DNA of 64,000 nt, taken from the NCBI GenBank assembly GCA_020349905.1, contig CP070702.1, positions 1,900,047 to 1,964,046 of the forward strand, written 5' to 3'. A program made the translations under genes and the position numbers. Source of the DNA: Candidatus Eiseniibacteriota bacterium (GTDB lineage Bacteria; Eisenbacteria; RBG-16-71-46; JAFGJU01). Shown here piece after piece: positions 21,608-64,000 of the stretch (the first letter of the stretch is position 1; the number at the start of each line of letters is the position of its first letter). Below the pieces are notes generated by a model. It saw only the letters and a program-made list of their open reading frames with translations, did not search any database and was not told the origin of the DNA.

Positions 21608-21641
21608 TCCGCCTCTCTATCTCGTCTGTCCATGCTCCGCG

Positions 21642-23386: not shown

Positions 23387-23428
23387 CTGCTGCCTTCCTT
23401 TCGCCCGGTGTTCGTGTCGATAGTGCGA

Positions 23429-24520
23429 CTACTTTCGGCTGCCTCTCCTGTAGAACGGTAGCTTCGTCACCGAGGCCCGGTGCTCTTTTCCCCGCACCAG
23501 GACCGTAACTTCTGTTCCAGGCTTCGACGCCTCCACGGGCAGATACGCCATGGCCAGTCCCTTTTTCAGGGAAGGTGAGAACGTCCCGCTGGTCACGCGG
23601 CCTATCTCTTTTCCTCCCGAGGTTACCGGATAACCGGTGCGAGGAATCGCGTTCTCGAGCATCTCCAGTCCCACGAGCTTCCTTCGAACTCCTTCTTGCT
23701 TCTGCCGGACCAGAAACTCCCTGCCCAAGAACTTCTTCTTCTGAAGCTTTACAGTCCAGCCCAGGCCTGCCTCAAAAGGGGTCGTGCTCTCGTCGATGTC
23801 GTTTCCGTAGAGGCAATAGCCCATCTCGAATCTGAGCGTGTCGCGCGCGCCCAAACCCACCGGCTTCAATCCGAATCCGCGCCCCGCCTCGAAGAGCAGG
23901 TTCCAGAGACGGTCGGAATCGCGTGTGTCGTGATATAACTCGAAACCGTCTTCGCCGGTGTAGCCGGTGCGCGAGGCCAGGACTTGAAGCCCCTCGATCT
24001 CTATGCTCACGTGCCCGTTGTGCGGAAGGGACAGAAGCTCAGCCATTCCCGCTTTCTTAAGCACGTCCTCCGCCCTGGGACCCTGCAGAGCCACCTGGAC
24101 CGTCTTCTCGGAGAGGTCCTCAACGTGTGCCTCTTTTTCGGTATGAGAACGTATCCACCTGAAGCCCTTCTCGGTGTTTGAGGCGTTCAGGACGAAGAGC
24201 ACTTCGTCTCCGACCCTGTAAGCCAGAAAGTCGTCCACGATGCCTCCCCGTTCTGTGCACATCGTGGTGTATAGAACCTGGCCCGACCGGAGCGACGAGA
24301 TGTCGTTGGTGACAAGACCGTCGGCAGCATCAATCGCACCGGGCCCTCGAAACCATATCTCCCCCATGTGCGAGACGTCGAAGATACCCGCGGCCTCCCT
24401 GACCGCGGTGTGCTCCTCTACGAGTCCCGAGTACTGGACGGGCATGAGCCAGCCAGCGAACTCAACAAAACGGGCACCGAGTTCACGGTGCTTCTGGGCG
24501 AGCGGAGTTTCTCTGGGCAT
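23429..24520 (-). CDS. gcvT: Glycine cleavage system T protein (aminomethyltransferase)
   Basis: Start set to ATG 24520 ('MPRETPLAQKHRELGARFVEFAGWLMPVQYSG', canonical GcvT N-terminus); the longer ORF to 24613 is an unsupported extension. Confidence 0.9.
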   Translation of the reverse strand: MPRETPLAQKHRELGARFVEFAGWLMPVQYSGLVEEHTAVREAAGIFDVSHMGEIWFRGPGAIDAADGLVTNDISSLRSGQVLYTTMCTERGGIVDDFLAYRVGDEVLFVLNASNTEKGFRWIRSHTEKEAHVEDLSEKTVQVALQGPRAEDVLKKAGMAELLSLPHNGHVSIEIEGLQVLASRTGYTGEDGFELYHDTRDSDRLWNLLFEAGRGFGLKPVGLGARDTLRFEMGYCLYGNDIDESTTPFEAGLGWTVKLQKKKFLGREFLVRQKQEGVRRKLVGLEMLENAIPRTGYPVTSGGKEIGRVTSGTFSPSLKKGLAMAYLPVEASKPGTEVTVLVRGKEHRASVTKLPFYRRGSRK

Positions 24521-24616
24521 TGGCCTTCTCAGGCAGTCTCTTATGATACTCCGTCCTGCGGGACCGCCGCCTTCCCCACGTCTCTTCACTGCCCGCAGTT
24601 CAGGTACAATCACATC

Positions 24617-49916: not shown

Positions 49917-50501
49917 TCAGCGTGTTCGCTCATCTCCGCATCTCTGTTTCAGTATCCACTCGATGGCCTGTGTCGAGTTCTCGCACACCTTGTCCGCAAA
50001 GCCCAGAACCTCGTCCCCGTCCTTCTCCAGCTCCCCGCTCCCGAAGCCAGTCCGCACGAAAACCGTCGAAGTTCCGGCCGCCTTGCCGGCCTGCAAGTCG
50101 GTCAGCTTGTCACCGACCATGAAGCTGCGAGAGAGGTCGATGTCCAGCTCTTCGGCGGCCCTGAGAAGAAGTCCCGGTCTGGGCTTCCGGCAATCGCACT
50201 CCACGTCGTAGTCCGGGTGATGTACGCAGTAATAGACCGCATCCAGCGAAGCGTCCTGCGCGGCAAGAAGCTGTCTTAGTCGCTCGTTCACTGCCTCGAT
50301 ATCCTCGACAGTGAAGAGTCCCCTCGCCACGCCTGCCTGGTTCGATACGACGACCACGGGCACGCCCAGTCTGTTGAGGTGCGCGATCGAGGAGGCGACA
50401 TTCCCCAGCAGCTTGACCTTCGCAGGGTCCGAGATGTAGCCTGTCTCTTCGATAATCGTTCCGTCACGGTCAAGAAAGATCGCCCAGTCTGCCCTGCTCA
50501 A
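49917..50501 (-). CDS. gmhB: D-glycero-D-manno-heptose 1,7-bisphosphate 7-phosphatase (HAD-IIIA)
   Basis: 'AIFLDRDGTI' DxDGT motif, 'VVVSNQAG', 'CDCRKPRPG', 'FMVGDKLTDLQAG'. Confidence 0.8.
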   Translation of the reverse strand: MSRADWAIFLDRDGTIIEETGYISDPAKVKLLGNVASSIAHLNRLGVPVVVVSNQAGVARGLFTVEDIEAVNERLRQLLAAQDASLDAVYYCVHHPDYDVECDCRKPRPGLLLRAAEELDIDLSRSFMVGDKLTDLQAGKAAGTSTVFVRTGFGSGELEKDGDEVLGFADKVCENSTQAIEWILKQRCGDERTR

Positions 50502-52738
50502 TCGTCTCCTCCTTCTGTCTTTTTCAGGCTGCCTTCACTGTCGCCGCTCCGGCTCAGCTCCATGGCGGCGCGGTAGACGTCCTCGACTCCGATGCGGCCC
50601 AGGCACTCGAGCTCGTAGGGACATGTCTTGCGAAAACACGGCGAGCAAGACAACTTGTCGTACAAGACCCGTACCGCCTTGCCCCGCGGTGCGGTCCAGT
50701 AAGGATCCGAGGAGCCAAAGACGACCACAACGGGGCACCCAGACGCCGCTGCGACGTGGACGGCCCCCGAGTCGTTCCCGACAAAGACAGCGCCCCGCGA
50801 TGCCACGGCGGCCAGCTCGCGAAGACCCGTCTTCCCGGAGAGGTCCACCACCGGAGCATCCGACCTTTCAGCGATTTCCCGGCAGAGCTCTCTCTCCACC
50901 CGGCTGCCCACCAGAACAGCCTGAAACCCCCCTCCACTGCAAAGCATCCCCGCGAGGCGAGCGAAGTTCTCGGCCGGCCACCTCTTGGTCTCGCCATACG
51001 TGGCGCCGGGCGCAAGAAGAACCACCGAAGCCGATTCCCCCACGCCTGCATCTCTGAGCAGTTGCCGCGCGCGCCCGAGCTCCCCGGCCGAGAAAAACAG
51101 GCGAGGCCCCCGGGGCACAATGCATCCGGCCGGAACAAGCTGCGCATACTGTTCACACAGGTGACTCCATCTCTGGCGCTCCAGGCAGACGGCAAGCATC
51201 CTGTCTCTGAGTTCTCCCCCGAACCCAACGATCTTCTTCACCCCGCCCAGCCGGAGCATGACCGCAGAGGAAAACGAGTCGGGCATGGCAACTCCCGCCT
51301 CGCAGTGGTTTCTCCTCAACGTCACGGCCCCACTGATGACACCGGCAACCCCCCCGCGACGGAGGCGCACCAACTTCCCCGCGACCTTACTCTGTTCCAG
51401 GATGCCGACCACACGCTCGTGGGCCACCACAACCAGTTCCCCTCCACGCATACACTCCTTCAAGGCTTCCAGCGACGGGCAAGCCATCACAGCATCTCCC
51501 ACCCAGTTCGGGGCGCGGACTGCGAGGGAGCCAGGATGCGGAGCGCTCCACGCCCGGGGGCTCGCACCCCCTCGTTCTCCTCCGAGTACGAAGCGAGGCA
51601 ACTGGAGCCGCCGGTGGGACGCGAGGTCGGCCGCTCTTGGCTCGCTCAGAATCCGCTGCACCTCCTCTGCCACCAGCGCCACGTCTATCGATTCCATGCA
51701 ACGCATGTCGCCCTCGTTGCAGGAATCCTTACCGTGGACGTCGCACGGTTTGCAGTCGAAGGAATTGGATATCACGCTGGAGCAGGAATCCGGCGGATAG
51801 AATCCGAACTCCGGCACCGTCGAGCCGAACAGCGCCACGACCGGTGTGCCCACGGCGTGAGCCACGTGCATGAGACCGGAATCATTAGAAACCACGCAGT
51901 CGCAGCGCGCCAGCAGTGCAGCTGAGCTCCGTAGCCCTCCTACGTGGAACCTCACGCCTTCGAGTCTCTCACACGACTTCTCGACGTCCTGAAGAACCGC
52001 CGCGTCCACTTCTCCCCCAACAACGCACACGTCGAGGTCCCTTTCGCGAAGCTCCTGGGCCAGAAGCCCGAAGCGCTCCGCGCTCCAGATCTTCGTTTTC
52101 CACTTGGCTCCGGGACACAACCCCACGAGGGGCCGCCTTCCCTGCCCGGGAAGAAGAGCTAAGAACTCCTCTGCCAGGTTCTTCTCTTCATCTGCCAGAA
52201 ACATCCGGGGCCTTGAGGCGGGTACCGGGCCGCACGCCCTTTCGGCGGCGCGCAAGAAGCGTTGGACGGAATGCCTGACCCGCCGGGGGCGATACCTCTT
52301 GAACCGAACCATGGCGTGTCTGGCAACGGCGTCTCTGTCACCGGTCTTGCGGTCCCCGGATGGCGCCAGACGGCAGACCAAGGCTGTGCGGGGAGTGGAC
52401 TGCAGGTCCAGAACGACGTCGAACTTTCTCGACCTCACCTCAGCAGCAGTCGCAAAGATACCGCTCACCGAGTCCACCCCACGAGGAGGGTAGGAAAGGA
52501 CCTCGTTCACAGCGGGATTATGCTTGAAAACGTCGGCAAAAACGTTCCTGGTGAGGAACGTAATCCTGGCCTCGGGAATGGCTTCCTTGACCGCGAGGGG
52601 TACGGAAGAGGCCAGAACCACGTCTCCCAGTGAGCTCAATCGGATCACCAAGATTTTCGGGGAAGAATCCGGCTTCACTGGACCGCCTGGATGTGCCCGG
52701 GACCGGGTAGAAGTGAACGCGGAGTGACGAACCGTCAC
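50498..52738 (-). CDS. Fused tandem GT9 heptosyltransferases (WaaC-like + WaaF-like); GTG start overlapping msbA stop
   Basis: Domain 1 'KILVIRLSSLGDVVLASSVPLAVKE'; domain 2 'AVRAPNWVGDAVMACPSLEALKE...MPDSFSSAVMLRLGG'; 746 aa. Confidence 0.8.
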   Translation of the reverse strand: MTVRHSAFTSTRSRAHPGGPVKPDSSPKILVIRLSSLGDVVLASSVPLAVKEAIPEARITFLTRNVFADVFKHNPAVNEVLSYPPRGVDSVSGIFATAAEVRSRKFDVVLDLQSTPRTALVCRLAPSGDRKTGDRDAVARHAMVRFKRYRPRRVRHSVQRFLRAAERACGPVPASRPRMFLADEEKNLAEEFLALLPGQGRRPLVGLCPGAKWKTKIWSAERFGLLAQELRERDLDVCVVGGEVDAAVLQDVEKSCERLEGVRFHVGGLRSSAALLARCDCVVSNDSGLMHVAHAVGTPVVALFGSTVPEFGFYPPDSCSSVISNSFDCKPCDVHGKDSCNEGDMRCMESIDVALVAEEVQRILSEPRAADLASHRRLQLPRFVLGGERGGASPRAWSAPHPGSLAVRAPNWVGDAVMACPSLEALKECMRGGELVVVAHERVVGILEQSKVAGKLVRLRRGGVAGVISGAVTLRRNHCEAGVAMPDSFSSAVMLRLGGVKKIVGFGGELRDRMLAVCLERQRWSHLCEQYAQLVPAGCIVPRGPRLFFSAGELGRARQLLRDAGVGESASVVLLAPGATYGETKRWPAENFARLAGMLCSGGGFQAVLVGSRVERELCREIAERSDAPVVDLSGKTGLRELAAVASRGAVFVGNDSGAVHVAAASGCPVVVVFGSSDPYWTAPRGKAVRVLYDKLSCSPCFRKTCPYELECLGRIGVEDVYRAAMELSRSGDSEGSLKKTEGGDD

Positions 52739-54642
52739 TGAACGGCTTCAGAGGTCCGGGCCGATTCTGGCGCCGTGAATTGCAGCTCGTACAGCCTCCT
52801 GTACATTCCTTCCTCAGAGAGCAAGCTCTCGTGTGTCCCTCGCTGGACTATCCTGCCGCGATCCAACACGATTATCTGGTCGGCACGCTGAACAGTGGAG
52901 AGTCTGTGAGCTATCACGAACGTCGTCCTGTTGCGCATCAATCGCTCTATGGCCTGCTGGACCAGGAGTTCGGACTCAGTGTCCAGCGCAGAGGTGGCCT
53001 CGTCCAGAATCAGGATGGGCGGGTTCTTCAGGACCGCCCGGGCGATTGCGATTCTCTGTCTCTGCCCGCCTGATAGGCGCACGCCCCTTTCGCCCATGAC
53101 CGTCTGATAGTCCGAGGGCATCATGGCTATGAATTGGTGGGCGTTGGCGGCTCTGGCGGCACGCACGACCTCTTCTTCCGGAATGTCCTCGCAACCGTAC
53201 GCAATGTTATTCCATACGGTGTCGTTGAAGAGAATGGTCTCCTGAGTCACGATGCCCATGAGGGCACGAAGTGAATCAGTCTTGATATCCAGAACGTCCA
53301 CCCCGTCAAACAGGATGCTGCCCGAGGTGGGAGCGTAGAACTTCGGCAGCAGGTCGACCAGAGTTGACTTGCCCGCCCCGCTGGGTCCGACGATCGCCAG
53401 AACCTGACCGACCTCCACCGTGAAGCTGACGTCCTTCAGGACGTCGGCCGCCCCGTCGTAGCTGAAACACACGTTTCGGAATTCTATCGAGTTGCGAAGC
53501 GAGGTGAGTCCGGTGGCACGTGGGCTGTCGAACATCTGGGGTTCGGTGTCCAGCAGCTTGAAGACCCTCTTTGCCGCCGCCAACCCCTCCTGAATCTTGG
53601 TGTTCACCTGGCTGAGACTCTTTATCGGGGTCATCATGGAGAACATTGCGAGCATGAATACGAAGAACCTGTCCGGCTGGAGAGTCTGTTCCTGCAGAAT
53701 CTGCCTGCCCCCGAACCAGAGCACGACGGTGCCCACCACGACTCCCACGTACTCCGAGAGAGGTGCAGCCATCGCCCCTATGCGCCTGAGCCTCAGGAAG
53801 GAAGATAGATACGCCTTGGTGAAGCGGAAGAACTTGTTCTGTTCGAAGGACTCCATACCGAACGACTTCACCACCCTTATGCCTGATATCGTTTCCTGCA
53901 GCACGGCGGTGATATCTCCCATCCTTTCCTGGATGAGAGTGCTGTCTCTTCGGAGCTTCTTGCTTATCGTAACTATTAGGAACATGCTCGGTGGCAGCAC
54001 CGCGAGCGAGACAAGTGCCAGGTGCCAGCTCGCCCAGAAGACCAGGAACAGGCAGACGAACAGCAGAAGCGTGTCCCGCACGACATTGCTGAACACTGCC
54101 GTTATGGTCCCCCTAATCATGCTCACATCGTTGGTGATTCTGGAGATGAGCCTACCTGTCCTCTGGCTGTGAAAGAAGGACAACGGCAGCGCGTGGAGAT
54201 GTGAATACAGGCGGTCCCTCAGATCCTTGATCACCTTCTGTTCCACGGAGGCAATCAGGTAGGTCTGCCCGTAATTGAAGAGGGTCTTTATTAGCATCAC
54301 TATGAGGATGACGAAACAGATCCGCTCAAGCGACACCAGTGGCCGGGAGGAGAGAAGATACTTCTGCGCCTTCAACTTCACGTAGTCCTTCATCTTCCCG
54401 AGGTCGTCCGGTGAAGAAATGTCGAGGGATGGCTCTTCCAGCGTCTGCGCTTGCTGTAGCGCCACGGGGTCTCTGAAAAGCACCTGGATGAACGGAGAGA
54501 CCATCCCGATCGAGAATCCGCTGAAGATGGCGAACATGACCATGCACGCGAGCGCGACGAGCAGGCTTCGCCAATGAGGTTTCACGCACGCCATCAATCT
54601 CCAAAACGGACTCATCACTACCTCGCGCGCAGGCTCGACCAC
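52735..54642 (-). CDS. msbA: Lipid A export ABC transporter, fused permease/ATPase
   Basis: Six TM then NBD with 'GPSGAGKSTL', '[14 protein letters not shown]', 'LILDEATSALD'; located in LPS operon. Confidence 0.85.
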   Translation of the reverse strand: MVEPAREVVMSPFWRLMACVKPHWRSLLVALACMVMFAIFSGFSIGMVSPFIQVLFRDPVALQQAQTLEEPSLDISSPDDLGKMKDYVKLKAQKYLLSSRPLVSLERICFVILIVMLIKTLFNYGQTYLIASVEQKVIKDLRDRLYSHLHALPLSFFHSQRTGRLISRITNDVSMIRGTITAVFSNVVRDTLLLFVCLFLVFWASWHLALVSLAVLPPSMFLIVTISKKLRRDSTLIQERMGDITAVLQETISGIRVVKSFGMESFEQNKFFRFTKAYLSSFLRLRRIGAMAAPLSEYVGVVVGTVVLWFGGRQILQEQTLQPDRFFVFMLAMFSMMTPIKSLSQVNTKIQEGLAAAKRVFKLLDTEPQMFDSPRATGLTSLRNSIEFRNVCFSYDGAADVLKDVSFTVEVGQVLAIVGPSGAGKSTLVDLLPKFYAPTSGSILFDGVDVLDIKTDSLRALMGIVTQETILFNDTVWNNIAYGCEDIPEEEVVRAARAANAHQFIAMMPSDYQTVMGERGVRLSGGQRQRIAIARAVLKNPPILILDEATSALDTESELLVQQAIERLMRNRTTFVIAHRLSTVQRADQIIVLDRGRIVQRGTHESLLSEEGMYRRLYELQFTAPESARTSEAVQ

Positions 54643-54688
54643 GAGCCCAGGTTCCGTCTCGCGGACGGTGTCTATCTTGCCCTCAGAG

Positions 54689-55057
54689 TCACCAGGGGTA
54701 TTTCTTTACGAATTCCTCGTCGAAATCGTACACGTCGCTGAAGTCCTCTATCTTGTCTTCATCCGTCTTACCGAGAAGCTTGTTCTCTACCAGGTTGAAG
54801 ACAATCTCCCCGAAATCTCGGGTGGTGTGCACGCCCCAGTAGTCAAACACGGTCTTGGTCATGGGCCCGTACTGGGCAAGAGCGAACTCCCTGATGCCCT
54901 CGAGCAACTCCTTGCCCGTCACATGTCTTGACTCACCGAGCTTCGAGAGCGTGTAGTTGAGGGCCAGCATGACGAACGCGTACGCCGCCACCTTGTAACG
55001 AGGGTCTTTGTCCGTTATCTGTTCGACCTTCTCGTAGAAATCCGAATCCCGTTCCAT
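54689..55057 (-). CDS. Small conserved hypothetical protein (~122 aa)
   Basis: Start placed at 'MERDSDFYEKV'; acidic soluble protein, no family assigned. Confidence 0.4.
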   Translation of the reverse strand: MERDSDFYEKVEQITDKDPRYKVAAYAFVMLALNYTLSKLGESRHVTGKELLEGIREFALAQYGPMTKTVFDYWGVHTTRDFGEIVFNLVENKLLGKTDEDKIEDFSDVYDFDEEFVKKYPW

Positions 55058-55164
55058 ATCACTCCGGTGCGGACCGCAGCCCAGATTAACGGTCCACATT
55101 CTACGTTGTCAGCACTCGGCCCGTGCACGGCGACTCCCGGTCGGACCGCGACGGCCGGTCAATA

Positions 55165-56811
55165 CTAGAGGTTCCACGCCCTGAACGAAGCCCTTCGCGC
55201 AAACCCTCCATCCTTGGAGAGAACCGTGTCTCTTTTCCATTTTCTATCATCTCTCCTAGGATGGTCAAGGTTGTAGTGCAGGCCTCTGCTTTCCTTCCTC
55301 TGAAGTGCACACCTGATTATGAGTTCAGCCACCAGCCCGATGTTCCTCAGTTCTATGAGGTCGCTGTCAAGTGCGAATCTCATGTAGTAGTCTTCGATTG
55401 TCTCCCGCATTACCGCCGCCCGTCGAGACGCAATCTGAAGGCGCTCGTCCCGGCGCATTATTCCCACGTAATCCCACATCAGCTTTCTCAGGGCCTGCCA
55501 ATCGTGCTTCACCGAGACGCTCTCGAACGGTGTGCGCGACTCACCGGCCTCCAACGGGGCCACGTGAGGAGGCTTGTCCGTCTGGCGGCCCAGGGCGGAG
55601 TTGGCGGCGCGCTCTGCGAAAACGAGCGCTTCCAGGAGGGAATTGCTGGCCAATCTGTTGGCACCGTGCACCCCCGTGCAGGCCACCTCGCCGCACGCGT
55701 ACAGGCCGGGAACCGTCGTCCTCCCTTCGAGGTCCGTGACGACTCCTCCACACATGTAGTGTGCGGCGGGAACAACGGGGACGGGCTCCCTCGCAGGGTC
55801 AAACCCCAGCGAGACGAGCTTCTTGTGTATGTTCGGGAAGCGCTTCTCTATCCTGCTCTTCCCTATGGGCCTCATGTCCAACATCACGTGCAGGTCCCCC
55901 CGTCGCTTCATCTCCCGGTCGATGGCTCTTGCGACAACGTCCCTGGGGGCAAGGCTCGCACGCTTGTGGTATTTCTCAAGAAAGGCGGAGCCGTCGTTCG
56001 TAGTCAGTACCGCGCCCTCGCCGCGTACCGCCTCGGAAATCAGGAAAGACTTTGCCTCGGGATGAAACAGGCAGGTGGGGTGAAACTGGACGAACTCGAG
56101 ATTGGCGACGGCCGCGCCGGCTCTGTAGGCCATGGCTATCCCGTCACCTGTTGCGATGTCTGGATTCGACGTATAGAGATACACCTTGCCACACCCCCCG
56201 GTTGCCAGCAGGGTGTTTCGAGCGGCGAAAGTGACTATTCTGCCCGTTTTCGTGTTCAGGGCATGCGCGCCCCAGCAGACCGGCCTCGTGCCCCGCCCCG
56301 CCCTTACACGGCTCCTTTCGACAACGAGCTCGACTCCGATGTGGTCTTCCACAAGCGCGATCGCAGGATGACGCATCACCGCTGCCAGCAGAGCCCGCTC
56401 TATCTCTCTTCCGGTGAGGTCGTCGGAATGGACTATCCTCCGTGCAGAATGACCGCCCTCGATGCCCAGCGCGAATCCGGAGGGCGCTTGTTCGTCTCTG
56501 GAGAACTTCACGCCGAGGTCAACAAGCTCCCTGACCAGCCTCGGGCCTTCCCTCACGAGCATCTCGACAGCCTTCCTGTTCCCGAGGCCCACTCCGCAAC
56601 GCAGCGTGTCGCGAACGTGAAGCCCGTAGGTGTCTTCCTGGGAGAGGACACAGGCCACGCCTCCCTGAGCGTAGTTCGTGGTAGATTCGTAGTCCTCTTT
56701 CTTGGTCACTATCGTCACGGTCCCCCTGTCAGCGACTTTGAGGGCGAACGTGAGACCGGCAATGCCGCTACCCAGGACGAGAAAATCGGTTTTTCTAGTT
56801 GTTGGCACCAT
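55165..56811 (-). CDS. nadB: L-aspartate oxidase
   Basis: FAD-binding 'VLGSGIAGLTFA', 'TNYAQGGVA', 'RPVCWGAHALNTKTGRI', succinate-dehydrogenase/fumarate-reductase flavoprotein fold, 548 aa. Confidence 0.9.
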   Translation of the reverse strand: MVPTTRKTDFLVLGSGIAGLTFALKVADRGTVTIVTKKEDYESTTNYAQGGVACVLSQEDTYGLHVRDTLRCGVGLGNRKAVEMLVREGPRLVRELVDLGVKFSRDEQAPSGFALGIEGGHSARRIVHSDDLTGREIERALLAAVMRHPAIALVEDHIGVELVVERSRVRAGRGTRPVCWGAHALNTKTGRIVTFAARNTLLATGGCGKVYLYTSNPDIATGDGIAMAYRAGAAVANLEFVQFHPTCLFHPEAKSFLISEAVRGEGAVLTTNDGSAFLEKYHKRASLAPRDVVARAIDREMKRRGDLHVMLDMRPIGKSRIEKRFPNIHKKLVSLGFDPAREPVPVVPAAHYMCGGVVTDLEGRTTVPGLYACGEVACTGVHGANRLASNSLLEALVFAERAANSALGRQTDKPPHVAPLEAGESRTPFESVSVKHDWQALRKLMWDYVGIMRRDERLQIASRRAAVMRETIEDYYMRFALDSDLIELRNIGLVAELIIRCALQRKESRGLHYNLDHPRRDDRKWKRDTVLSKDGGFARRASFRAWNL

Positions 56812-56937
56812 CTGCTGTCCTCAATCGTAGCGAGTGCGGGGAGCGCGTCCCCGAGCCAGCGGGCTGCACCGACAGGCACACCTCCCTTGCCTTCACTATA
56901 TTGACGTACGGGCCCGTCCGCAAGCTTCCCCGCGCCT

Positions 56938-58074
56938 TCAGCGCACCCGCCCTTCTCTCCGTGGTTTCGGCCCTGTTTCCAGGGCGCTGAGCAGGGCACG
57001 CTGGAGGGCCTCAGTTCCTTCCGCAGTCCTCAGCTCTATTCCCACCGCCAGGAGCGGGATTCCCAGCCGTGGCATCTCACCCTCGACGGGCAATCTCATC
57101 GCGTCCTTCTCAGTCGTGACGAGAAACTCCGTCTTCACGTGCGACGCTTCCTCTCGTATCGCCTCCAGATCGTGCGCGGAAAAGAAATGGTGGTCGGAGA
57201 ATCTCTTGGACCCCACCAGACGGACTCCCGTTTCGCGGAGCGTCTGCTCGAATGACTCCGGGTTCGCCACACCCGAGAAAGCATACACGGCCGCCTTCTC
57301 CAGCACCTCCGGCTTCGCCTCCTCCCATGAGTCCACCTTCCAGACGCCTCTCAAGACGTGCTCTCCCCTGACTATGGGAGCCCGTGTGAGCCTGCGAATC
57401 TCGCTCTCAAGGGCCTGCGTGTTCTGGACCTGATTGCAGCGAGTGATCACGACTACGTCGCCGCGCGAGAGGTTCTGCTTCGGCTCCCTGAGACGCCCCC
57501 GCGGTAGAAGATGCCCGCTTCCCCAAGGATTGGTGGCGTCTACGAGCACGATCTCCAGGTCTTTCCGAATCGAGATGGATTGGAAGCCATCGTCCAGGAC
57601 GATGACCTGAGGCCTCAGGGCTCTCCAGGTCCTCCGGACGGCAGAGGCCTTGGTCCACCCCGAGGCGACGGGAACCGAACCCAGCAGGTGCGACAGCAGC
57701 ACCGCCTCATCGCCAGCCACACTCGAAACTCGGGGCGAAGGATCCTGCTCCCTGAGCAGCACGTAGCTCCCCGAGGTTCTCGCCCCGTACCCGTGGCTCA
57801 CCACCGCTGTGCGCACGCCCATTCTGTGGAAGAACTGCGCCACCCAGGCGACCATCGGCGTCTTTCCTGTCCCCCCCACCGTCATGTTACCGACGCTGAC
57901 TACCGTGCAGGGCACTGCCAGCTTGCTCCTGAACTCCTCAAGGCTCCATCTCAAACTGAGCGCCAGGCCGTAGCACCAAGACAAGGGGACAAGCGGAGCC
58001 GCAAGCGCGTTTACAAGCGACGAGTCCCTTCTGGACTCCAGATAGTGAAGAGCTCCCTCCAGCACGTCTTTCAC
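56938..58074 (-). CDS. lpxK: Tetraacyldisaccharide 4'-kinase
   Basis: 'VSVGNMTVGGTGKTPMVAWVAQ' P-loop typical of LpxK. Confidence 0.8.
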   Translation of the reverse strand: MKDVLEGALHYLESRRDSSLVNALAAPLVPLSWCYGLALSLRWSLEEFRSKLAVPCTVVSVGNMTVGGTGKTPMVAWVAQFFHRMGVRTAVVSHGYGARTSGSYVLLREQDPSPRVSSVAGDEAVLLSHLLGSVPVASGWTKASAVRRTWRALRPQVIVLDDGFQSISIRKDLEIVLVDATNPWGSGHLLPRGRLREPKQNLSRGDVVVITRCNQVQNTQALESEIRRLTRAPIVRGEHVLRGVWKVDSWEEAKPEVLEKAAVYAFSGVANPESFEQTLRETGVRLVGSKRFSDHHFFSAHDLEAIREEASHVKTEFLVTTEKDAMRLPVEGEMPRLGIPLLAVGIELRTAEGTEALQRALLSALETGPKPRREGRVR

Positions 58075-59441
58075 AGTACACCCACTTTCTCCAGGTGCTC
58101 CAGAGTTAGCGAGGAGGCGACCGGTCTGGAACGGAAGAAGGTTCGTGCTTCGCGCCCTCGCTCGCCACGCTCCTCGGGCGAGGCGGCCAACCTGGACACT
58201 TCACGCTCCACGTCAGAGGAGTCCCGTACCGTCAACAAAGCTCCGGAGTTGCCGAGCGCCACGCAATCGTCCTCAATGTTCTCCCTGGAAGGCCCGGCGA
58301 GTATCGGCAGACCAGCTGCCGCGGGCTCCAGCACGTTGTGGCCTCCGTGGCCCGAAAGTGTGCCTCCAATGAACGCGATGTCCGACTCCCGGTATGCGGC
58401 CACCAGTTCACCGATGGTGTCAAGCACCAGGACTTCGGTTCCCTCTCCGGGGACCGCAACCACCGCCTGTGGCCTGCCCCCTGAGGGCTGGGCCCTGAGG
58501 CTGCTCAGCTCTGCGGTCGCAAGACCGAAAGACCTCGCCACCCTGGATACGTGAGAGGACCGTTTGAGATGTCTGGGGGCCAGGACGAGGCGAAGTTCGG
58601 CCACCTTCTGTTTGGCCCGGGCGAAGCCTTCGCAGATTATCCGCTCCTCCCCCGGTCGCGTGCTTCCGGCCGTGAGAACCACGTCGGACTCAGACCAGCC
58701 CGTGCGCTGCCTCAGCGCCAGCTTCCCGCACGGAGGAAGTTGCGCGTCCTGCTTCGTGCTGCCTGTCACGAACATGCGTTCCCGCGAGACCCCCAGGCTC
58801 TCGTAGTTGAGCGCCTGTCTCTCGCTCTGCACCATGACCGCATCCAACTTGCGCAGGAGGGGTTCGAAGATGAATTTGAATCTCCTGTATCCCCTGAGCC
58901 CGGCGGCGCTGAGCTTGCCGTTCACAATTGCCACCTTCATGTCCCTCTTCTTGGCCTCCAGGATGAGAGACGGCCAGAGTTCAGTCTCGACAAGCAGAAG
59001 CGCGTCGGCCTTTATGCGCTCAAGCGCAGCTGCCACCACGAACGGGACGTCGAGCGGCAGGAAGAAAAAGTGTGATGGTTGACTCAGGGAAGCCCTGGCC
59101 ACCGACTGCCCCGCGAAGGTCATCGTGGAGAAGACGACCTCCACTCCGTACTTGCGATGCATCTCCTTGACAAGCCTGGTGGCTGCCCTCACCTCGCCCA
59201 CGGAGGAGGCGTGGACCCAGATCCTGGAAGGTTCATGCGCTTGCCTCGGAAGCAGACGGGGCACGAGCCCCAACATCCCTCTCCAGCGCTCGGAACGAGC
59301 CAGCAGGCCGAGCCCCAGGATGGGGCTGACGATGAAGAAGGCGACCGTCACGGCAAGTCTGTATGCAAGAGGTCCGAAATTGCCTGCTATTGAACCCAAT
59401 TTTGCCCTTCGCTTTCGAATGACGGGTCCCGAGCGTTGCAC
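58071..59441 (-). CDS. waaA: 3-deoxy-D-manno-octulosonic acid (Kdo) transferase
   Basis: N-terminal TM then 'IWVHASSVGEVRAATRLVKEM' characteristic of KdtA; 4-nt overlap with lpxK. Confidence 0.85.
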   Translation of the reverse strand: MQRSGPVIRKRRAKLGSIAGNFGPLAYRLAVTVAFFIVSPILGLGLLARSERWRGMLGLVPRLLPRQAHEPSRIWVHASSVGEVRAATRLVKEMHRKYGVEVVFSTMTFAGQSVARASLSQPSHFFFLPLDVPFVVAAALERIKADALLLVETELWPSLILEAKKRDMKVAIVNGKLSAAGLRGYRRFKFIFEPLLRKLDAVMVQSERQALNYESLGVSRERMFVTGSTKQDAQLPPCGKLALRQRTGWSESDVVLTAGSTRPGEERIICEGFARAKQKVAELRLVLAPRHLKRSSHVSRVARSFGLATAELSSLRAQPSGGRPQAVVAVPGEGTEVLVLDTIGELVAAYRESDIAFIGGTLSGHGGHNVLEPAAAGLPILAGPSRENIEDDCVALGNSGALLTVRDSSDVEREVSRLAASPEERGERGREARTFFRSRPVASSLTLEHLEKVGVL

Positions 59442-59519
59442 GTCTAAGGAACCGGCCCGGGTGCCTGTCCCTGGCCGCTCTGCCCAACTGGGGACCCTTC
59501 GGAGAACCTGGCGCGAGAG

Positions 59520-60665
59520 TCAAGACCCCACGGCCGGCAGCATGCTCAGAGCCAGAGCAGCGGCCCTCTGTGAAGCCCCCGGCCGTCCAAGGGAGCTCTC
59601 TACCAGGGCCAGACTTGCGATAAGCTCCCGTCTCTTCTCTTCGTCGAAGACCAGCTCTCCCAGTTCCTCCGAGATCCTCGACGGGTCGATGTCGTTCTGA
59701 AGATACTCAGAAACTATCTTCTTCCCGGCAACAATGTTCACCAGGCCTATTGTGTCAATCGCCACCAGTCTCCTGGCGATCGCCCACGAAAGAGGAGACA
59801 CACGATAGACGATTACCATCGGAGTCCCCAGAATCGCTGCTTCCAGCGTGGCGGAACCCGATGCGATGACGGCCGCGCTAGAGACGTAGAGCAACTCAGA
59901 ACTTCTCCCCTCCAGGACGCGCACCGGCAGATCTAGCTTGGCTATCATCTTCTTTATCTCGCTCGACAGGGCACCGTCGGCCGCGCACACGGCCAGCTCC
60001 ACCGACCGCTTCTCACTCAATTTGACGCCCGCGGCAAGCATGCTGGGCAGAAGCCTGCGCACCTCCTGCCGCCTGCTTCCGGGCAGAAGGGCCACCACCG
60101 GAAGCTCGGACGAAAGGCCCAGCCTTCGTCGCACCTCCGCCTTCTCTCCTTCGACGCGCACCGATTCCAGGAGAGGGTGCCCCACAAATTCTACCTCCAG
60201 TCCGTGGCCCCGAAAGAAATCCACCTCGAACGGAAACACGACCGCTATTCTGTCAATGTTCGACGCCATGAACTTGACTCTGCCCTGGCCCCACGCCCAC
60301 ACCTGGGGAGCGATGTAGTACATCACCGGAATGCCCAGGCGTTTCGCGTACCTGCAAAGTCTGAGATTAAAGCCGGGAAAATCGACGGCAATAAGTAGTT
60401 GTGGGCGCTCATGTTTCATCAGTTTCTTCAACTTCCACATGAGGCCTATGAACGAATGCAGTTTCGAGATCACCTCTGTGAATCCCATCACTCCCATGTG
60501 CTCCAGCGAGACCACCATGGTGGTCCCTGCCTCGCGCATCCTGGGACCCCCCACCCCCAGCACCTCAAGGTCCGGGGCCTTGTCTCTCAACGCACGCACC
60601 AGCCTGGAGGCGTGAAGGTCACCGGAAGGCTCCCCGGCCACCACCAGGACTTTTCGTCGATTCAC
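59520..60665 (-). CDS. lpxB: Lipid-A-disaccharide synthase
   Basis: 'KVLVVAGEPSGDLHASRLVRAL' canonical LpxB N-terminus; start set to GTG 60665 overlapping the upstream TGA (GTGA); the longer ORF to 60911 is an unsupported extension. Confidence 0.85.
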   Translation of the reverse strand: MNRRKVLVVAGEPSGDLHASRLVRALRDKAPDLEVLGVGGPRMREAGTTMVVSLEHMGVMGFTEVISKLHSFIGLMWKLKKLMKHERPQLLIAVDFPGFNLRLCRYAKRLGIPVMYYIAPQVWAWGQGRVKFMASNIDRIAVVFPFEVDFFRGHGLEVEFVGHPLLESVRVEGEKAEVRRRLGLSSELPVVALLPGSRRQEVRRLLPSMLAAGVKLSEKRSVELAVCAADGALSSEIKKMIAKLDLPVRVLEGRSSELLYVSSAAVIASGSATLEAAILGTPMVIVYRVSPLSWAIARRLVAIDTIGLVNIVAGKKIVSEYLQNDIDPSRISEELGELVFDEEKRRELIASLALVESSLGRPGASQRAAALALSMLPAVGS

Positions 60666-61693
60666 CTCGGCTGATCTCCCACCGGCGGCTCCTCCGTCTG
60701 GAAGGAGAGAGCTTCGATTCCCTCTCTGATCTTCTCGCTGACTCTCAGAGCTGCCTCCATGGCCCGCAGTCCCGCCGTTCCGTCCACGGGCGGCTTCTCC
60801 CCGGTCAGGGCGCATCTGACGAAACACTCCATCTCCAGCCTCAGGGGTTCCTCCCCTCCGGCAGTAATCTTCCGCCTGACGATGCCAGGAGCAATCTCCG
60901 TCTCTTCCCACCCCGCGGCCCCGTTTTCGGACCTGACCGGGGCGCCCTTTCTATAGACCTCTGCCTTGCCTGCCAGGCAATCGATGGAGATGTAGGAATC
61001 TCGTCCAAAGAACCTTATCTTCCGCAGTCTCTCCTTGGATACCCTGCTCGCGGTCAGATTGGCGACCGCGCCGTTCTCGAAGAGAATTCGAGCGTTCGCG
61101 ATGTCCACGTTGGAGGACAGAATAGGGACTCCCGTCGCCTCCACCGAACGAACGTCGCTGTGCACGGTGGCCAGGACCAGGTCGATATCATGTATCATCA
61201 GGTCCAGGATGACGTCCACGTCGGTGCTGCGCCCCAAGAAGGCGGAGAGCCTGTGTCCCTCTATGAAGAGCGGCTGGCGTATCAGAGACAGAGAGGCCTG
61301 CACCACCGGATTGAAGCGTTCCACGTGCCCGGTCTGGACAATCACGGAGTGTCTTTCGGAGAGCTCGATCAGGGCTCGCGCCTCTTCGACGGTTGCAGTC
61401 AGCGGCTTTTCCACCAGGACGTGGATGCCAGAGGACACACATTCGGAAGCAACCGCGAAATGCGCCGTGGTGGGAACGGCCACAGTGACAGCGTCTGCCG
61501 CGGAAATCATCTCCCGGAGGGACGAGAAGGCCCTGGTGTCCGTCTCTTCTGCGACCTTCCTGCCAACGTCGGGATTCTTGTCGTAAACTCCGACGAGCTC
61601 CGCCTGTCCCAGCGAGGCGACCACACGAGCGTGCTGCCTGCCGAGGTGACCTACCCCAGCCACACCTACTCTCAGCCGTCCTGATTCACTCAC
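60662..61693 (-). CDS. Gfo/Idh/MocA-family NAD-dependent oxidoreductase embedded in the lpx cluster (GnnA-like candidate)
   Basis: Rossmann N-terminus 'RVGVAGVGHLGRQHARV', 'EKPLTATVEEARALIE' family signature. Confidence 0.8.
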   Translation of the reverse strand: MSESGRLRVGVAGVGHLGRQHARVVASLGQAELVGVYDKNPDVGRKVAEETDTRAFSSLREMISAADAVTVAVPTTAHFAVASECVSSGIHVLVEKPLTATVEEARALIELSERHSVIVQTGHVERFNPVVQASLSLIRQPLFIEGHRLSAFLGRSTDVDVILDLMIHDIDLVLATVHSDVRSVEATGVPILSSNVDIANARILFENGAVANLTASRVSKERLRKIRFFGRDSYISIDCLAGKAEVYRKGAPVRSENGAAGWEETEIAPGIVRRKITAGGEEPLRLEMECFVRCALTGEKPPVDGTAGLRAMEAALRVSEKIREGIEALSFQTEEPPVGDQPR

Positions 61694-61829
61694 GTTCTAC
61701 CACTCCTTGAGTCATTCGCGTTGTCTCAGCTGGAACAAGAGGCCGGCGGCACCTGTCCTGCAACACGGCCTCTAATCGACATCTGAATCATCCGTCAGCG
61801 GAGAAGAAAGGTCTACGGGATGATATCGC

Positions 61830-62603
61830 TCAGCTGGAGATTCCCCTGTCGGACTGACGGACGAAATCCAGGAAATGCTCCACCTCGGGAAAGGGGTGCA
61901 GTTCAGACGTGGCTCTCTCGACCGCCTGACTGGTGTTCAGACCTGACCTGTAGAAGAGGCGGTGCAGTCTCTTCAGCTCGAGCCTGACATCTGGGGGAAA
62001 TCCACGCCTCAGCAATCCGACCGAGTTGAGCCCCACCACTCTGAGAGGGTTGCCGGCGGCCCTTACATACGGCGGAACGTCCTTCGGGACCCTGGAACCC
62101 CCGCCTATGAAGGCGTGCCGTCCTATCTTCACGAACTGGTGCACCGGGGTCACGCCTCCGACTATGGCGTTGTCATCGATGACGACGTGGCCCGCGAGGT
62201 TTACCGCGTTGGCCAGGATGACGTTGTCCCCGATTATGCAGTTGTGGGCCACGTGTACGTATGCCATGAGAAGATTGTCGTTTCCGATCCTGGTCTCCTC
62301 TCCCTCGTTAGTGGCCCTGTTTATCGTGACGAACTCGCGGATCGTGTTTGAGTCGCCTATGTCAACGAGGCTGGGAGCGCCGCGGTATTTAAGGTCCTGG
62401 GGTGGAGTACCCACGACCGCGTGGTGGAGGATACGACAGTTTCTTCCTATTCTGATGGGACCTTCCACGACCACGCCACTTCCCAGGACGGTCCCGGAGC
62501 TCAGCTCTGCCCGCCCTGAGATGACGCAGTAAGGGCCCACGATCACGTCTTCTGCTATTGTTGCCTCAGGATCCACGACGGCGGTGGGGTGAACTTGAGG
62601 CAT
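61830..62603 (-). CDS. lpxA: Acyl-ACP--UDP-N-acetylglucosamine O-acyltransferase
   Basis: Left-handed beta-helix hexapeptide repeats, 'IHPTAVVDPEATI', 257 aa. Confidence 0.9.
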   Translation of the reverse strand: MPQVHPTAVVDPEATIAEDVIVGPYCVISGRAELSSGTVLGSGVVVEGPIRIGRNCRILHHAVVGTPPQDLKYRGAPSLVDIGDSNTIREFVTINRATNEGEETRIGNDNLLMAYVHVAHNCIIGDNVILANAVNLAGHVVIDDNAIVGGVTPVHQFVKIGRHAFIGGGSRVPKDVPPYVRAAGNPLRVVGLNSVGLLRRGFPPDVRLELKRLHRLFYRSGLNTSQAVERATSELHPFPEVEHFLDFVRQSDRGISS

Positions 62604-62627
62604 AGTCTCCTCTGGCGAGCTGAGGAA

Positions 62628-63947
62628 TCAGCGATCCACGATGGTAGAAAGTAGATCTGCCTCCGCCACCAGCTCCCCGTCTACAAAGGCCTTCCCCTTC
62701 ATCTTGCAGATCTTGTGTCTGAGTCGCACGAGCTCCAGTTCGAATCTGAGTTGATCACCGGGCAGAACAGGCTTCCTGAATTTCGCGTTGTCTATCCCCA
62801 TGAAATAGACCAGCTTCTCCCTCGGATCATCGACCGTGCTGAGAAGAAGCACCCCTCCCACCTGTGCCATTGCCTCGATGATGAGAACGGCAGGCATGAT
62901 CGGATGGCCAGGGAAGTGCCCCTGGAAGAACGGCTCGTTGATAGTGACGTTCTTGATGCCCACCACCCGCTTCCTGTCCTCCAGCTCAAGGATTCTATCC
63001 ACCAGGAGAACAGGGTACCTGTGGGGCATTATCTGCTGTATCGCGTCTATGCCGAGATGGCCCCTGCCTCCCCTCGAGGGAAGACCCAGAAAGCCGTCCG
63101 GCTTGATCTGTTCGTTGAGTTTCTTGACGAATTTCACGTTGCTCTCGTGACCGGACCTGACCGCTATGAAGTGCCCCATCAGAGGTCTACCGAGAAGGAA
63201 CAGGTCACCCAGGAAATCCAGAATCTTATGACGCACGAACTCGTTGGCGAACCTGAGGGGCTCGTCGTCCATGATTCCGTCGTCCTGAACCACGACCGCG
63301 TTCTCTGGGCTGCCCCCCTTGATCAAGCCTCGAGCCCTTAGTTCGTCCACGTCCTTGAAAAGGACGAAGGTCCTCGCCGGAGCGATCTCGTCGGCAAAGA
63401 CCTCGTCATCGAGCTCAAAAGAGGCGTGCTGCGTTCCGACCCAGGGATTCTCGTACTCTATGGTGAAACTTATCTTGAGACCGTTATAAGGAACGGCGAG
63501 AAGCTCCACGTCGTCATCCTGTAGAAACACCGGCTTCGTTACCTTGAAGTACTTCTTCGGCGCGCTCTGCTTCACCAGGCCGGCGCCCCTCAGAAGCTCG
63601 ACGAAAGGAGCGGCACTCCCATCGGCGGCTTCGGCGGCCTCCAGGGAATCCAGCTCGATTATGACGTTGTCAATGCCCAGACCCGCCAGCGTCGCCAGGA
63701 TGTGCTCGACGGTGTGTACCTCGGTCGAGCCGTCTGCGAGTATCGTTCTCCGTCCTGCAGAATCCTCGTACTTGGCGTTCTTCGCGCTCACGAGAACCTC
63801 GGGCCTTCCGGGCAGGTCTATCCTTACGAATCGGATTCCGTGGTCCACCGGAGCGGGCTTGAAAGTGGCAACACATTTCCGCCCGGTGTGGAGACCCGTA
63901 CCCTCGTAGGACACCTCTCTTTCAATCGTCCTTTGATGCTTCAGCAT
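62628..63947 (-). CDS. lpxC/fabZ: Bifunctional UDP-3-O-acyl-GlcNAc deacetylase / 3-hydroxyacyl-ACP dehydratase (LpxC-FabZ fusion)
   Basis: N-terminal LpxC '[17 protein letters not shown]...HTVEHILA'; C-terminal FabZ hot-dog '[23 protein letters not shown]'. Confidence 0.9.
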
Positions 63948-64000
63948 CCTCTTTCTCTCTCTCCAGGCCTTGCACTCGCTTGTCCAGCTCCTTGAACTGC

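What the first reader, a model, noticed from the sequence alone, without database searches (positions are those of the whole stretch)
60662..61693. Gfo/Idh/MocA oxidoreductase wedged between lpxA and lpxB (GnnA-like), hinting at 2,3-diamino-glucose lipid A
In bacteria that make GlcN3N-based lipid A, a Gfo/Idh/MocA dehydrogenase (GnnA) and an aminotransferase (GnnB) convert UDP-GlcNAc before LpxA acts. This gene is translationally coupled to lpxB (GTGA overlap at 60662-60665) and lies directly downstream of lpxA.
Basis: established knowledge. Interest (0 to 1): 0.5.

Follow-up and report, generated by a model that had tools for sequence, protein, structure and literature searches.

The report
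GnnA-type dehydrogenase in lipid A operon
The gene between lpxA and lpxB is a clear relative and positional counterpart of GnnA, the enzyme that starts making the diamino-sugar form of lipid A, but its partner aminotransferase is not nearby, so whether this uncultured Eisenbacteria bacterium makes that lipid A remains unproven.

Summary
A 343-aa Gfo/Idh/MocA ORF (60662-61693, minus strand) lies between lpxA (61830-62603) and lpxB (59520-60665). Its TGA stop overlaps the lpxB GTG start (GTGA at 60662-60665).

The protein is an orthologue of Acidithiobacillus ferrooxidans GnnA (UDP-GlcNAc 3-dehydrogenase). PDB 7bvj scores E 8.5e-61 and the next structure 2e-15. The AlphaFold model matches 7bvj at TM 0.94-0.96. 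In Acidithiobacillus, gnnA occupies the same slot: lpxA-gnnA-gnnB-lpxB.

The window has no gnnB slot, because gnnA and lpxB overlap. No DegT-type aminotransferase occurs in the 64-kb window or within 10 kb of the gene in four related Eisenbacteria/Latescibacteria loci. I could not read the rest of the source genome (NCBI MAG, Candidatus Eiseniibacteriota, protein UCF78149.1).

The gnnB-less layout is the common one. Among 85 loci from many phyla, lpxB directly follows the gnnA-like gene in 29, and gnnB intervenes in 5.

Verdict: a new member of a known kind. The enzyme assignment is well supported. GlcN3N-containing lipid A is plausible but untested. Interest is low to moderate.

The parts
60662..61693 (-). 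gnnA-like gene: a 343-aa NAD-dependent Gfo/Idh/MocA oxidoreductase, predicted UDP-GlcNAc 3-dehydrogenase
   Evidence: Pfam PF01408 and PF22725. PDB 7bvj GnnA scores E 8.5e-61 and the next hit 2e-15. The AlphaFold model has pLDDT 91.8 and matches 7bvj at TM 0.94-0.96. NF040723 scores 188 bits. The motifs GVGHLG, EKP, GHVERFNP, DLMIHD and DIANAR are conserved.
60662..60665 (-). GTGA overlap between the gnnA-like stop codon (TGA) and the inferred lpxB start codon (GTG)
   Evidence: Read directly from the sequence. The LpxB Pfam alignment begins at residue 6 of the protein started at this GTG.
59520..60665 (-). lpxB, lipid-A-disaccharide synthase (381 aa from the GTG at 60665)
   Evidence: PF02684 E 9.3e-96; TIGR00215 302.7 bits against a cutoff of 190.
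61694..61829 (-). 136-nt lpxA-gnnA spacer carrying the AAGGAG ribosome-binding site and a hairpin shared with relatives
   Evidence: Sequence; alignment with L001 and L003; folds. The folding energy of the whole region is not unusual (z = -0.18) and there is no Rfam match.
61830..62603 (-). lpxA, acyl-ACP--UDP-GlcNAc acyltransferase (257 aa)
   Evidence: NF003657 355.6 bits against a cutoff of 226; PF13720 and Hexapep. PDB LpxA matches: E. coli 1lxa 236 bits, Leptospira 3hsq 207 bits.
62628..63947 (-). lpxC-fabZ fusion (439 aa)
   Evidence: NF009667 515.4 bits against a cutoff of 465; PF03331 and PF07977.
58071..59441 (-). waaA (kdtA), Kdo transferase
   Evidence: PF04413 E 3.8e-51.
56938..58074 (-). 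lpxK, tetraacyldisaccharide 4'-kinase
   Evidence: PF02606 E 2.4e-83.
52735..54642 (-). msbA-like ABC transporter ending the cluster, downstream of nadB (55165-56811) and a small ORF (54689-55099)
   Evidence: The ORF translation shows ABC transporter motifs. The syntenic gene in relatives carries PF00664 and PF00005.

Best explanation
The ORF encodes a GnnA-family NAD-dependent UDP-N-acetylglucosamine 3-dehydrogenase. It is expressed from the lipid A operon (lpxC/fabZ-lpxA-gnnA-lpxB-waaA-lpxK) and its translation is tightly linked to that of lpxB.

Shown here: it is the orthologue and positional counterpart of the biochemically and structurally characterised A. ferrooxidans GnnA, with the cofactor and catalytic motifs intact.

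Inferred: it oxidises the 3-OH of UDP-GlcNAc to UDP-3-oxo-GlcNAc. An aminotransferase encoded elsewhere in the genome converts that to UDP-GlcNAc3N. LpxA then N-acylates it, so that some or all of the lipid A backbone sugars are 2,3-diamino-2,3-dideoxyglucose carrying amide-linked acyl chains.
For: Sequence and structure.
- By sequence, PDB 7bvj/7bvk is the best hit at E 8.5e-61 (209 bits). The next Gfo/Idh/MocA structure scores 2e-15, and the UDP-GlcNAcA 3-dehydrogenase-type entry 3q2k scores 4.7e-13.
- The fold search names 7bvj as 'UDP-N-acetylglucosamine 3-dehydrogenase GnnA from Acidithiobacillus ferrooxidans'. It matches at TM 0.94-0.96 and rmsd 1.2-2.8 A, with E 1e-36 against 3e-23 for the next entry.
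- The 7bvj sequence is 98-99% identical to Acidithiobacillus proteins.
- The best NCBIfam match is an independently defined UDP-GlcNAc 3-dehydrogenase family, NF040723 (E 2.6e-55). The next is IolG at 1.4e-27.

Genomic position.
- In Acidithiobacillus the order is lpxD-fabZ-lpxA-gnnA-DegT(gnnB)-lpxB, the same slot as in the window.
- Desulfuromonadales and Geobacter loci carry the same motif states as the window protein (GHLERFNP, DIANAR) and have a DegT gene between the gnnA-like gene and lpxB. That DegT is 53% identical to the Acidithiobacillus one.

Family.
- A neighbour-joining tree of 85 family members (window protein plus 84 loci) follows organismal groups, with no deep split separating gnnB-linked from gnnB-less members.
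- The gene is intact and 70-81% identical across Eisenbacteria relatives in the same position.
- Rare LpxI::GnnA-like and GnnA-like::LpxB fusion proteins tie the family to the lipid A pathway.
- Published work shows that gnnA and gnnB may be unlinked (PMC5644692).
Against: - No DegT-family aminotransferase occurs anywhere in the 64-kb window. This rests on Pfam scans of about 46 ORFs, a six-frame motif scan and phmmer with a GnnB query at E < 1e-3.
- None occurs within 10 kb of the gene in the Eisenbacteria/Latescibacteria loci L001, L003, L006 and L018.
- The transamination step therefore has no identified enzyme in this organism.
- The characterised enzyme is only 38% identical. It differs from the window protein at positions invariant in the rest of the family: GHIKRVHP against GHxERFNP, and DMATAW against DIANAR.
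- No organism with the gnnB-less lpxA-gnnA-lpxB layout is known to me to have a determined lipid A structure, so the link from this layout to GlcN3N is untested.
- The score against NF040723 (188 bits) is far below its cutoff of 450.
Confidence: 0.6

Rival explanations
1. The protein belongs to the GnnA family, but in gnnB-less operons of this kind it does a different job in lipid A assembly. It might oxidise another sugar nucleotide or a later lipid A intermediate. The organism would then have an ordinary glucosamine lipid A or an undescribed modification.
For: - Among loci where lpxB is linked, 29 have lpxB directly after the gnnA-like gene and only 5 have gnnB in between. No DegT gene lies within 10 kb in the other 80 loci.
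- The rare fusions are with LpxI and LpxB, which act late in the pathway, and not with GnnB or LpxA.
- Residues invariant across the family (E125, N128, I198, N200, R202 in window numbering) differ in the one characterised enzyme.
- A freshwater Verrucomicrobia MAG labelled Akkermansia muciniphila (L073) has the gene overlapping lpxB. A. muciniphila lipid A is published with a glucosamine disaccharide backbone (PMC11436972, PMC13436333).
Against: - The Desulfuromonadales genes that do have an adjacent gnnB share the window protein's motif states, so those motifs are compatible with GnnA function.
- The tree shows one orthologous group with no paralogue split.
- Fusions most simply reflect neighbouring genes merging.
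- The Akkermansia lead is unverified. The MAG label is doubtful, and no genuine A. muciniphila protein appeared among the 120 best homologues.
- No other lipid A step is known to need such an oxidoreductase (my own knowledge).
Confidence: 0.2
2. The gene is an unrelated sugar or inositol dehydrogenase of the large Gfo/Idh/MocA superfamily that lies between lpxA and lpxB by chance.
For: The Pfam domains are generic. Some database records name relatives 'Myo-inositol 2-dehydrogenase' (P0073). TIGR04380 IolG gives a partial hit at E 1.4e-27.
Against: - The IolG score of 96.5 bits is far below its cutoff of 355 and covers mainly the N-terminal Rossmann domain.
- GnnA scores about 45 orders of magnitude better than any other solved Gfo/Idh/MocA protein.
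- The position next to lpxB recurs in Eisenbacteria, Gemmatimonadota, Nitrospirota, Verrucomicrobiota, Omnitrophota, KSB1 and Desulfobulbales.
Confidence: 0.03
3. The gene is a decaying remnant of a former gnnA-gnnB pair, left behind after gnnB was lost, and is no longer functional.
For: The gnnB slot seen in Acidithiobacillus and Geobacter is empty here.
Against: - The reading frame is intact with a good ribosome-binding site.
- All family-invariant residues are present.
- Relatives in the same position are 70-81% identical.
- The gnnB-less layout is conserved across many phyla, which implies selection.
Confidence: 0.02

Closest known systems
GnnA of Acidithiobacillus ferrooxidans (UDP-N-acetylglucosamine 3-dehydrogenase; PDB 7bvj/7bvk; Sweet et al. 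2004 and Manissorn et al. 2020, as cited in PMC8036547 and PMC9636410)
   Same: - Same two-domain Gfo/Idh/MocA fold, at TM 0.94-0.96.
- Best sequence match among solved structures.
- Shared GVGHLG, EKP and DLMIHD motifs.
- Same genomic slot between lpxA and lpxB.
   Different: - Only 38% identical.
- The window protein has about 30 extra C-terminal residues and a longer loop around residues 250-262.
- The family-wide motifs GHxERFNP and DIANAR read GHIKRVHP and DMATAW in the Acidithiobacillus enzyme.
- In Acidithiobacillus a DegT-type gnnB follows immediately. Here lpxB follows with a 4-nt overlap.
gnnA-gnnB pair inside the lipid A cluster of Desulfuromonadales/Geobacter (loci L012, L035, L081; Desulfuromonas versatilis protein P0314, annotated by its source as UDP-N-acetylglucosamine 3-dehydrogenase)
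   Same: 44-47% identity with the same motif states as the window protein, and the same lpxA-gnnA order.
   Different: These loci have a DegT aminotransferase, 53% identical to the Acidithiobacillus DegT gene next to gnnA, between the gnnA-like gene and lpxB. The window has none.
Archaeal UDP-N-acetylglucosamine 3-dehydrogenase family (NCBIfam NF040723)
   Same: Best curated family hit, E 2.6e-55, aligned over residues 7-249. It is annotated with the same reaction.
   Different: The score of 188 bits is far below the family cutoff of 450, so this is a related family and the protein is not a member. That family serves archaeal glycan synthesis and not lipid A (my own knowledge).
WbpB/WlbA-type UDP-GlcNAcA 3-dehydrogenases and aminoglycoside 3''-dehydrogenases (KanD2, GenD2)
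   Same: Same superfamily. These enzymes also oxidise a sugar 3-OH and pair with a DegT-type aminotransferase (my own knowledge). They appear as distant hits: 3q2k, 6jw6 and 6nor.
   Different: Much weaker similarity (E 1e-13 to 1e-15 against 1e-61), and a different genomic context.

Membership tests
GnnA (UDP-GlcNAc 3-dehydrogenase of the GlcN3N lipid A pathway) | Two-domain Gfo/Idh/MocA fold with an N-terminal Rossmann GxGxxG NAD site | tested here: met
   PF01408 and PF22725. GVGHLG lies at residues 13-18. The AlphaFold model has pLDDT 91.8.
GnnA (UDP-GlcNAc 3-dehydrogenase of the GlcN3N lipid A pathway) | Closest characterised relative, by sequence and by structure, is the biochemically defined A. 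ferrooxidans GnnA | tested here: met
   7bvj scores E 8.5e-61 against 2e-15 for the next hit. Foldseek gives TM 0.94-0.96 and E 1e-36 against 3e-23. Identity is 38% over 328 aligned positions.
GnnA (UDP-GlcNAc 3-dehydrogenase of the GlcN3N lipid A pathway) | Superfamily catalytic motifs retained: the Lys of EKP and the His of DxxxH | tested here: met
   E95-K96-P97 and D164-L-M-I-H168-D are invariant in alignments that include 7bvj. That these are the catalytic residues rests on general knowledge of the superfamily. The GnnA structure paper could not be read.
GnnA (UDP-GlcNAc 3-dehydrogenase of the GlcN3N lipid A pathway) | Encoded within the lipid A gene cluster between lpxA and lpxB, as in A. 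ferrooxidans | tested here: met
   Window gene order. Acidithiobacillus locus L089 reads lpxA-gnnA-DegT-lpxB.
GnnA (UDP-GlcNAc 3-dehydrogenase of the GlcN3N lipid A pathway) | Oxidises UDP-GlcNAc at C3 using NAD+ | not testable with these tools
   Requires an enzyme assay, best coupled to GnnB.
GnnA/GnnB pathway (UDP-GlcNAc to UDP-GlcNAc3N) | A GnnB (DegT/DnrJ/EryC1-type) aminotransferase encoded next to gnnA | tested here: not met
   gnnA and lpxB overlap by 4 nt. There is no DegT in the 64-kb window or within 10 kb in relatives. Adjacency is not obligatory in known systems (PMC5644692).
GnnA/GnnB pathway (UDP-GlcNAc to UDP-GlcNAc3N) | A GnnB orthologue somewhere in the same genome | not testable with these tools
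   The source genome (2.69-Mb contig, UCF78149.1) is not on record in the contig look-up. The single genome-collection scan did not return it.
GnnA/GnnB pathway (UDP-GlcNAc to UDP-GlcNAc3N) | An LpxA that accepts UDP-GlcNAc3N, and GlcN3N present in lipid A | not testable with these tools
   The window LpxA resembles E. coli LpxA (236 bits) slightly more than the UDP-GlcNAc3N-selective Leptospira LpxA (207 bits). Sequence similarity does not predict sugar-nucleotide selectivity. Lipid A chemistry is needed.
NCBIfam NF040723, archaeal UDP-GlcNAc 3-dehydrogenase (equivalog) | Whole-protein score at or above the curated cutoff of 450 bits | tested here: not met
   188.1 bits. The family is related but the protein is not a member.
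Inositol 2-dehydrogenase IolG (TIGR04380) | Whole-protein score at or above the curated cutoff of 355 bits | tested here: not met
   96.5 bits, with the best stretch at residues 7-133 only.

The most novel reading that the evidence does not exclude
The lpxA-(lpxI)-gnnA-lpxB module without gnnB is the predominant layout in Eisenbacteria, Gemmatimonadota, Nitrospirota, Verrucomicrobiota, Omnitrophota and others. It may not feed the classical GnnA/GnnB route.

Two readings are open. One is that these lineages aminate the 3-oxo sugar with a non-DegT aminotransferase. The other is that the dehydrogenase acts at a different, undescribed step of lipid A assembly that is functionally coupled to LpxI and LpxB.
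Probability: 0.12. Interest if true: 0.6.

Novelty: new member of a known kind. Interest (0 to 1): 0.25.

Why it matters
If the inference holds, Candidatus Eisenbacteria, a phylum with no cultured members, makes lipid A with amide-linked acyl chains on a 2,3-diaminoglucose backbone. In known bacteria this form changes membrane stability, resistance to antimicrobial peptides and recognition by TLR4 (PMC8036547).

The family is large and sits in lipid A clusters of many phyla. It has 2,214 clusters at 50% identity with E <= 1e-30. This suggests GlcN3N lipid A may be much more widespread than the few chemically characterised cases. That is a prediction from gene content and has not been demonstrated.

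For this single locus the result is mainly a better annotation: the database record names it only 'Gfo/Idh/MocA family oxidoreductase'.

Tried and rejected
1. Looking beyond the window. Exact-protein look-ups for the window's LpxC/FabZ and for the ORF itself found no record. Flanks had to be inferred from relatives.

2. Finding GnnB in the source genome. This was not possible. 

3. Akkermansia as a counter-example. Locus L073 is labelled A. muciniphila and has the gene overlapping lpxB. Published A. muciniphila lipid A has a glucosamine backbone. However, L073 appears to be an environmental MAG, and a search with its protein returned only environmental Verrucomicrobia at about 70% identity or less. 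The lead is therefore unverified and I did not use it as evidence against.

4. LpxA as a predictor of backbone type. Similarity ranking against solved LpxA structures does not discriminate. I know of no sequence rule for sugar-nucleotide selectivity.

5. The primary GnnA papers (Sweet 2004, Manissorn 2020, van Mourik 2010) are not held in the library. Substrate-contact residues therefore could not be checked.

6. Rfam on 54000-64000 gave no match.

7. The last literature search, combining GlcN3N with phylum names, was badly designed and returned only soil-ecology papers.

8. Two searches were rejected for term syntax.
Full report
**What is in the sequence**

The last 12 kb of the window carries a minus-strand lipid A operon:

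| Gene | Coordinates | Support |
|---|---|---|
| lpxC-fabZ fusion | 62628-63947 | NF009667, 515 bits |
| lpxA | 61830-62603 | NF003657, 356 bits |
| the flagged ORF (343 aa) | 60662-61693 | see below |
| lpxB | 59520-60665 | TIGR00215, 303 bits |
| waaA | 58071-59441 | PF04413 |
| lpxK | 56938-58074 | PF02606 |
| nadB | 55165-56811 | syntenic with the PF00890 L-aspartate-oxidase-type gene in relatives; not scanned in the window |
| small ORF | 54689-55099 | no Pfam match |
| msbA-like transporter | 52735-54642 | ABC motifs; synteny |
| double GT9 heptosyltransferase-like gene | 50498-52738 | PF01075 |

The ORF starts at a GTG, 9 nt after an AAGGAG. Its TGA overlaps a GTG that homology indicates is the lpxB start. 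No minus-strand terminator-like site separates the genes.

**Origin**

The exact protein is in NCBI as UCF78149.1, 'Gfo/Idh/MocA family oxidoreductase', from a Candidatus Eiseniibacteriota MAG on a 2.69-Mb contig. Relatives at 81% and 70% identity sit in identical synteny: bamA-skp-lpxD-lpxC/fabZ-lpxA-ORF-lpxB-(DUF374)-waaA-lpxK-nadB-msbA. They come from Latescibacteria bacterium DG_63 and an Eisenbacteria MAG.

**What the protein is**

- Pfam sees only the generic Gfo/Idh/MocA domains.
- Against the PDB the protein matches 7bvj/7bvk at E 8.5e-61. The next entry scores 2e-15.
- The structure library titles 7bvj 'UDP-N-acetylglucosamine 3-dehydrogenase GnnA from Acidithiobacillus ferrooxidans'. 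A confident AlphaFold model (pLDDT 91.8) superposes on it at TM 0.94-0.96, thirteen orders of magnitude in E-value ahead of any other fold match.
- The 7bvj sequence is 98-99% identical to Acidithiobacillus proteins.
- The best NCBIfam hit is a separately curated UDP-GlcNAc 3-dehydrogenase family from archaea (NF040723, E 2.6e-55). It falls below that family's cutoff.
- The NAD-binding GVGHLG, the EKP lysine and the DLMIHD histidine are invariant in alignments that include 7bvj.

**Positional orthology**

In Acidithiobacillus the characterised gene lies in lpxD-fabZ-lpxA-gnnA-DegT-lpxB. The window ORF occupies the same slot.

They come from Ignavibacteria, Bacteroidota, Acidobacteriota, Verrucomicrobiota, Gemmatimonadota, Nitrospirota, Desulfuromonadales, cable bacteria, Omnitrophota, Cloacimonadota and others. 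The representative library holds 2,214 clusters at 50% identity with E <= 1e-30.

My mapping covers 85 non-redundant loci:
- lpxB directly follows the gene in 29.
- A DegT gene followed by lpxB follows in 5: Acidithiobacillus, three Desulfuromonadales/Geobacter loci, and one gammaproteobacterial MAG.
- lpxA is directly upstream in 16.
- lpxI is directly upstream in 9.

The Geobacter DegT is 53% identical to the Acidithiobacillus DegT next to gnnA, so the two are orthologues. A neighbour-joining tree follows organismal groupings with no deep split between gnnB-linked and gnnB-less genes.

The Acidithiobacillus enzyme differs at motifs otherwise invariant in the family: GHIKRVHP for GHxERFNP, and DMATAW for DIANAR. 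The Desulfuromonadales genes with an adjacent gnnB have the same motif states as the window protein. Gammaproteobacterial and Magnetococcales sequences are intermediate. I read the Acidithiobacillus differences as lineage-specific divergence and not as a mark of a different function.

**The missing partner**

The window has no room for gnnB between the ORF and lpxB. Pfam scans of about 46 ORFs, a six-frame motif scan and a phmmer search with a GnnB query over all six-frame segments found no DegT-family protein in the 64 kb. They also found none within 10 kb of the gene in any locus other than the five listed above.

I could not search the rest of the source genome. Published genome comparisons state that gnnA and gnnB lie together but away from the lpx cluster in Bradyrhizobium, Brucella and Phyllobacterium. 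[quoted passage not shown] Absence nearby therefore does not refute the pathway, but the transamination step is unassigned here.

**How it most likely works**

- Shown: a GnnA orthologue sits in the lipid A operon, tightly spaced with lpxB.
- Inferred: NAD-dependent oxidation of UDP-GlcNAc at C3, then transamination by an unlinked enzyme, N-acylation by LpxA, and onward processing by the same LpxC, LpxD, LpxB and LpxK. The result would be a backbone wholly or partly of GlcN3N.
- From memory of the Raetz laboratory work, the oxidation is unfavourable and is pulled by the aminotransferase, and several LpxA enzymes accept UDP-GlcNAc3N. I could not check either point, because the papers are not held.

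**Rivals**

The main rival is that the gnnB-less layout signals a different role for the enzyme. Three things favour it: the predominance of that layout, rare LpxI::GnnA-like and GnnA-like::LpxB fusions, and an unverified lead from a Verrucomicrobia MAG labelled A. muciniphila. A. muciniphila lipid A is published with a glucosamine backbone. A chance neighbour of the wider superfamily, or a decaying remnant, is very unlikely given the conservation.

**Verdict**

This is a new member of a known kind. The enzyme assignment deserves high confidence (about 0.85-0.9). The claim that this bacterium makes GlcN3N-containing lipid A deserves about even odds until a GnnB is found or lipid A chemistry is done. 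The overall confidence of 0.6 given for the best explanation is a compromise between these two figures.

The finding improves an uninformative database annotation. It also points to a broader, testable question about how widespread GlcN3N lipid A is in uncultured phyla. For this locus a specialist would not be surprised.

Noticed in passing
window 61694-61829 (minus strand): The 136-nt lpxA-gnnA spacer contains a hairpin (AGAGGCCG...CGGCCUCU, followed by UGUUCC). Its sequence and pairing are largely shared with the Eisenbacteria and Latescibacteria relatives L001 and L003. It could be a processing or attenuation signal that sets lpxA expression apart from gnnA-lpxB. The folding energy of the whole spacer is not unusual (z = -0.18) and there is no Rfam match.
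   Followed up: partly
window 54689-56811 (minus strand): nadB (L-aspartate oxidase, 55165-56811) and a 136-aa ORF with no Pfam match (54689-55099) sit inside the lipid A operon between lpxK and msbA. The arrangement is conserved in relatives L001 and L003/L004, and nadB also lies in the cluster in L018. In L006 nadA and nadB both follow lpxK.
   Followed up: partly
proteins P0425, P0482, P0466, P0515 (metagenomic; found with the window protein): Rare predicted fusion proteins join the GnnA-like domain to LpxB (679 and 718 aa) or to LpxI (649 aa). The LpxI fusion appears in two independent assemblies. The LpxB fusions are single-sequence clusters and could be assembly or frameshift artefacts of overlapping genes.
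   Followed up: partly
loci L039, L080, L087 (about 12.4-13.6 kb in L087) and L031: In Cloacimonadota loci the gnnA-like gene is followed by asnS and a class I/II (PF00155, aspartate-type) aminotransferase. In L031 a related aminotransferase lies divergently upstream. This may be coincidence, or it may be a non-DegT candidate for the transamination step.
   Followed up: no
window 1-64000: No LpxH, LpxI or LpxG-type domain was found among the roughly 46 main ORFs. Nitrospirota, Acidobacteriota and other loci do have lpxI directly upstream of the gnnA-like gene. The enzyme that cleaves UDP-2,3-diacylglucosamine in this organism is not identified in the window.
   Followed up: no
window 62628-63947 (minus strand): lpxC and fabZ are fused into one 439-aa protein (NF009667, above its cutoff). 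The same fusion is seen in the Eisenbacteria, Gemmatimonadota and several other loci examined.
   Followed up: partly
window 49917-52738 (minus strand): A 746-aa protein with GT9 heptosyltransferase domains is followed by a HAD-family phosphatase (194 aa) just downstream of msbA. Together they suggest that heptose-containing core synthesis is part of the same gene cluster.
   Followed up: no
locus L073, 2075-4284: A MAG labelled Akkermansia muciniphila in its record title carries the gnnA-like gene overlapping lpxB. Its closest database relatives are environmental Verrucomicrobia at about 70% identity or less, and none is named A. muciniphila. The species label looks unreliable.
   Followed up: partly
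window 20111-24613 and 12066-13040 (minus strand): Glycine cleavage genes (T protein and two P-protein subunits) and a lipoate-protein ligase lie in the same window. They are ordinary housekeeping genes unrelated to the finding.
   Followed up: no
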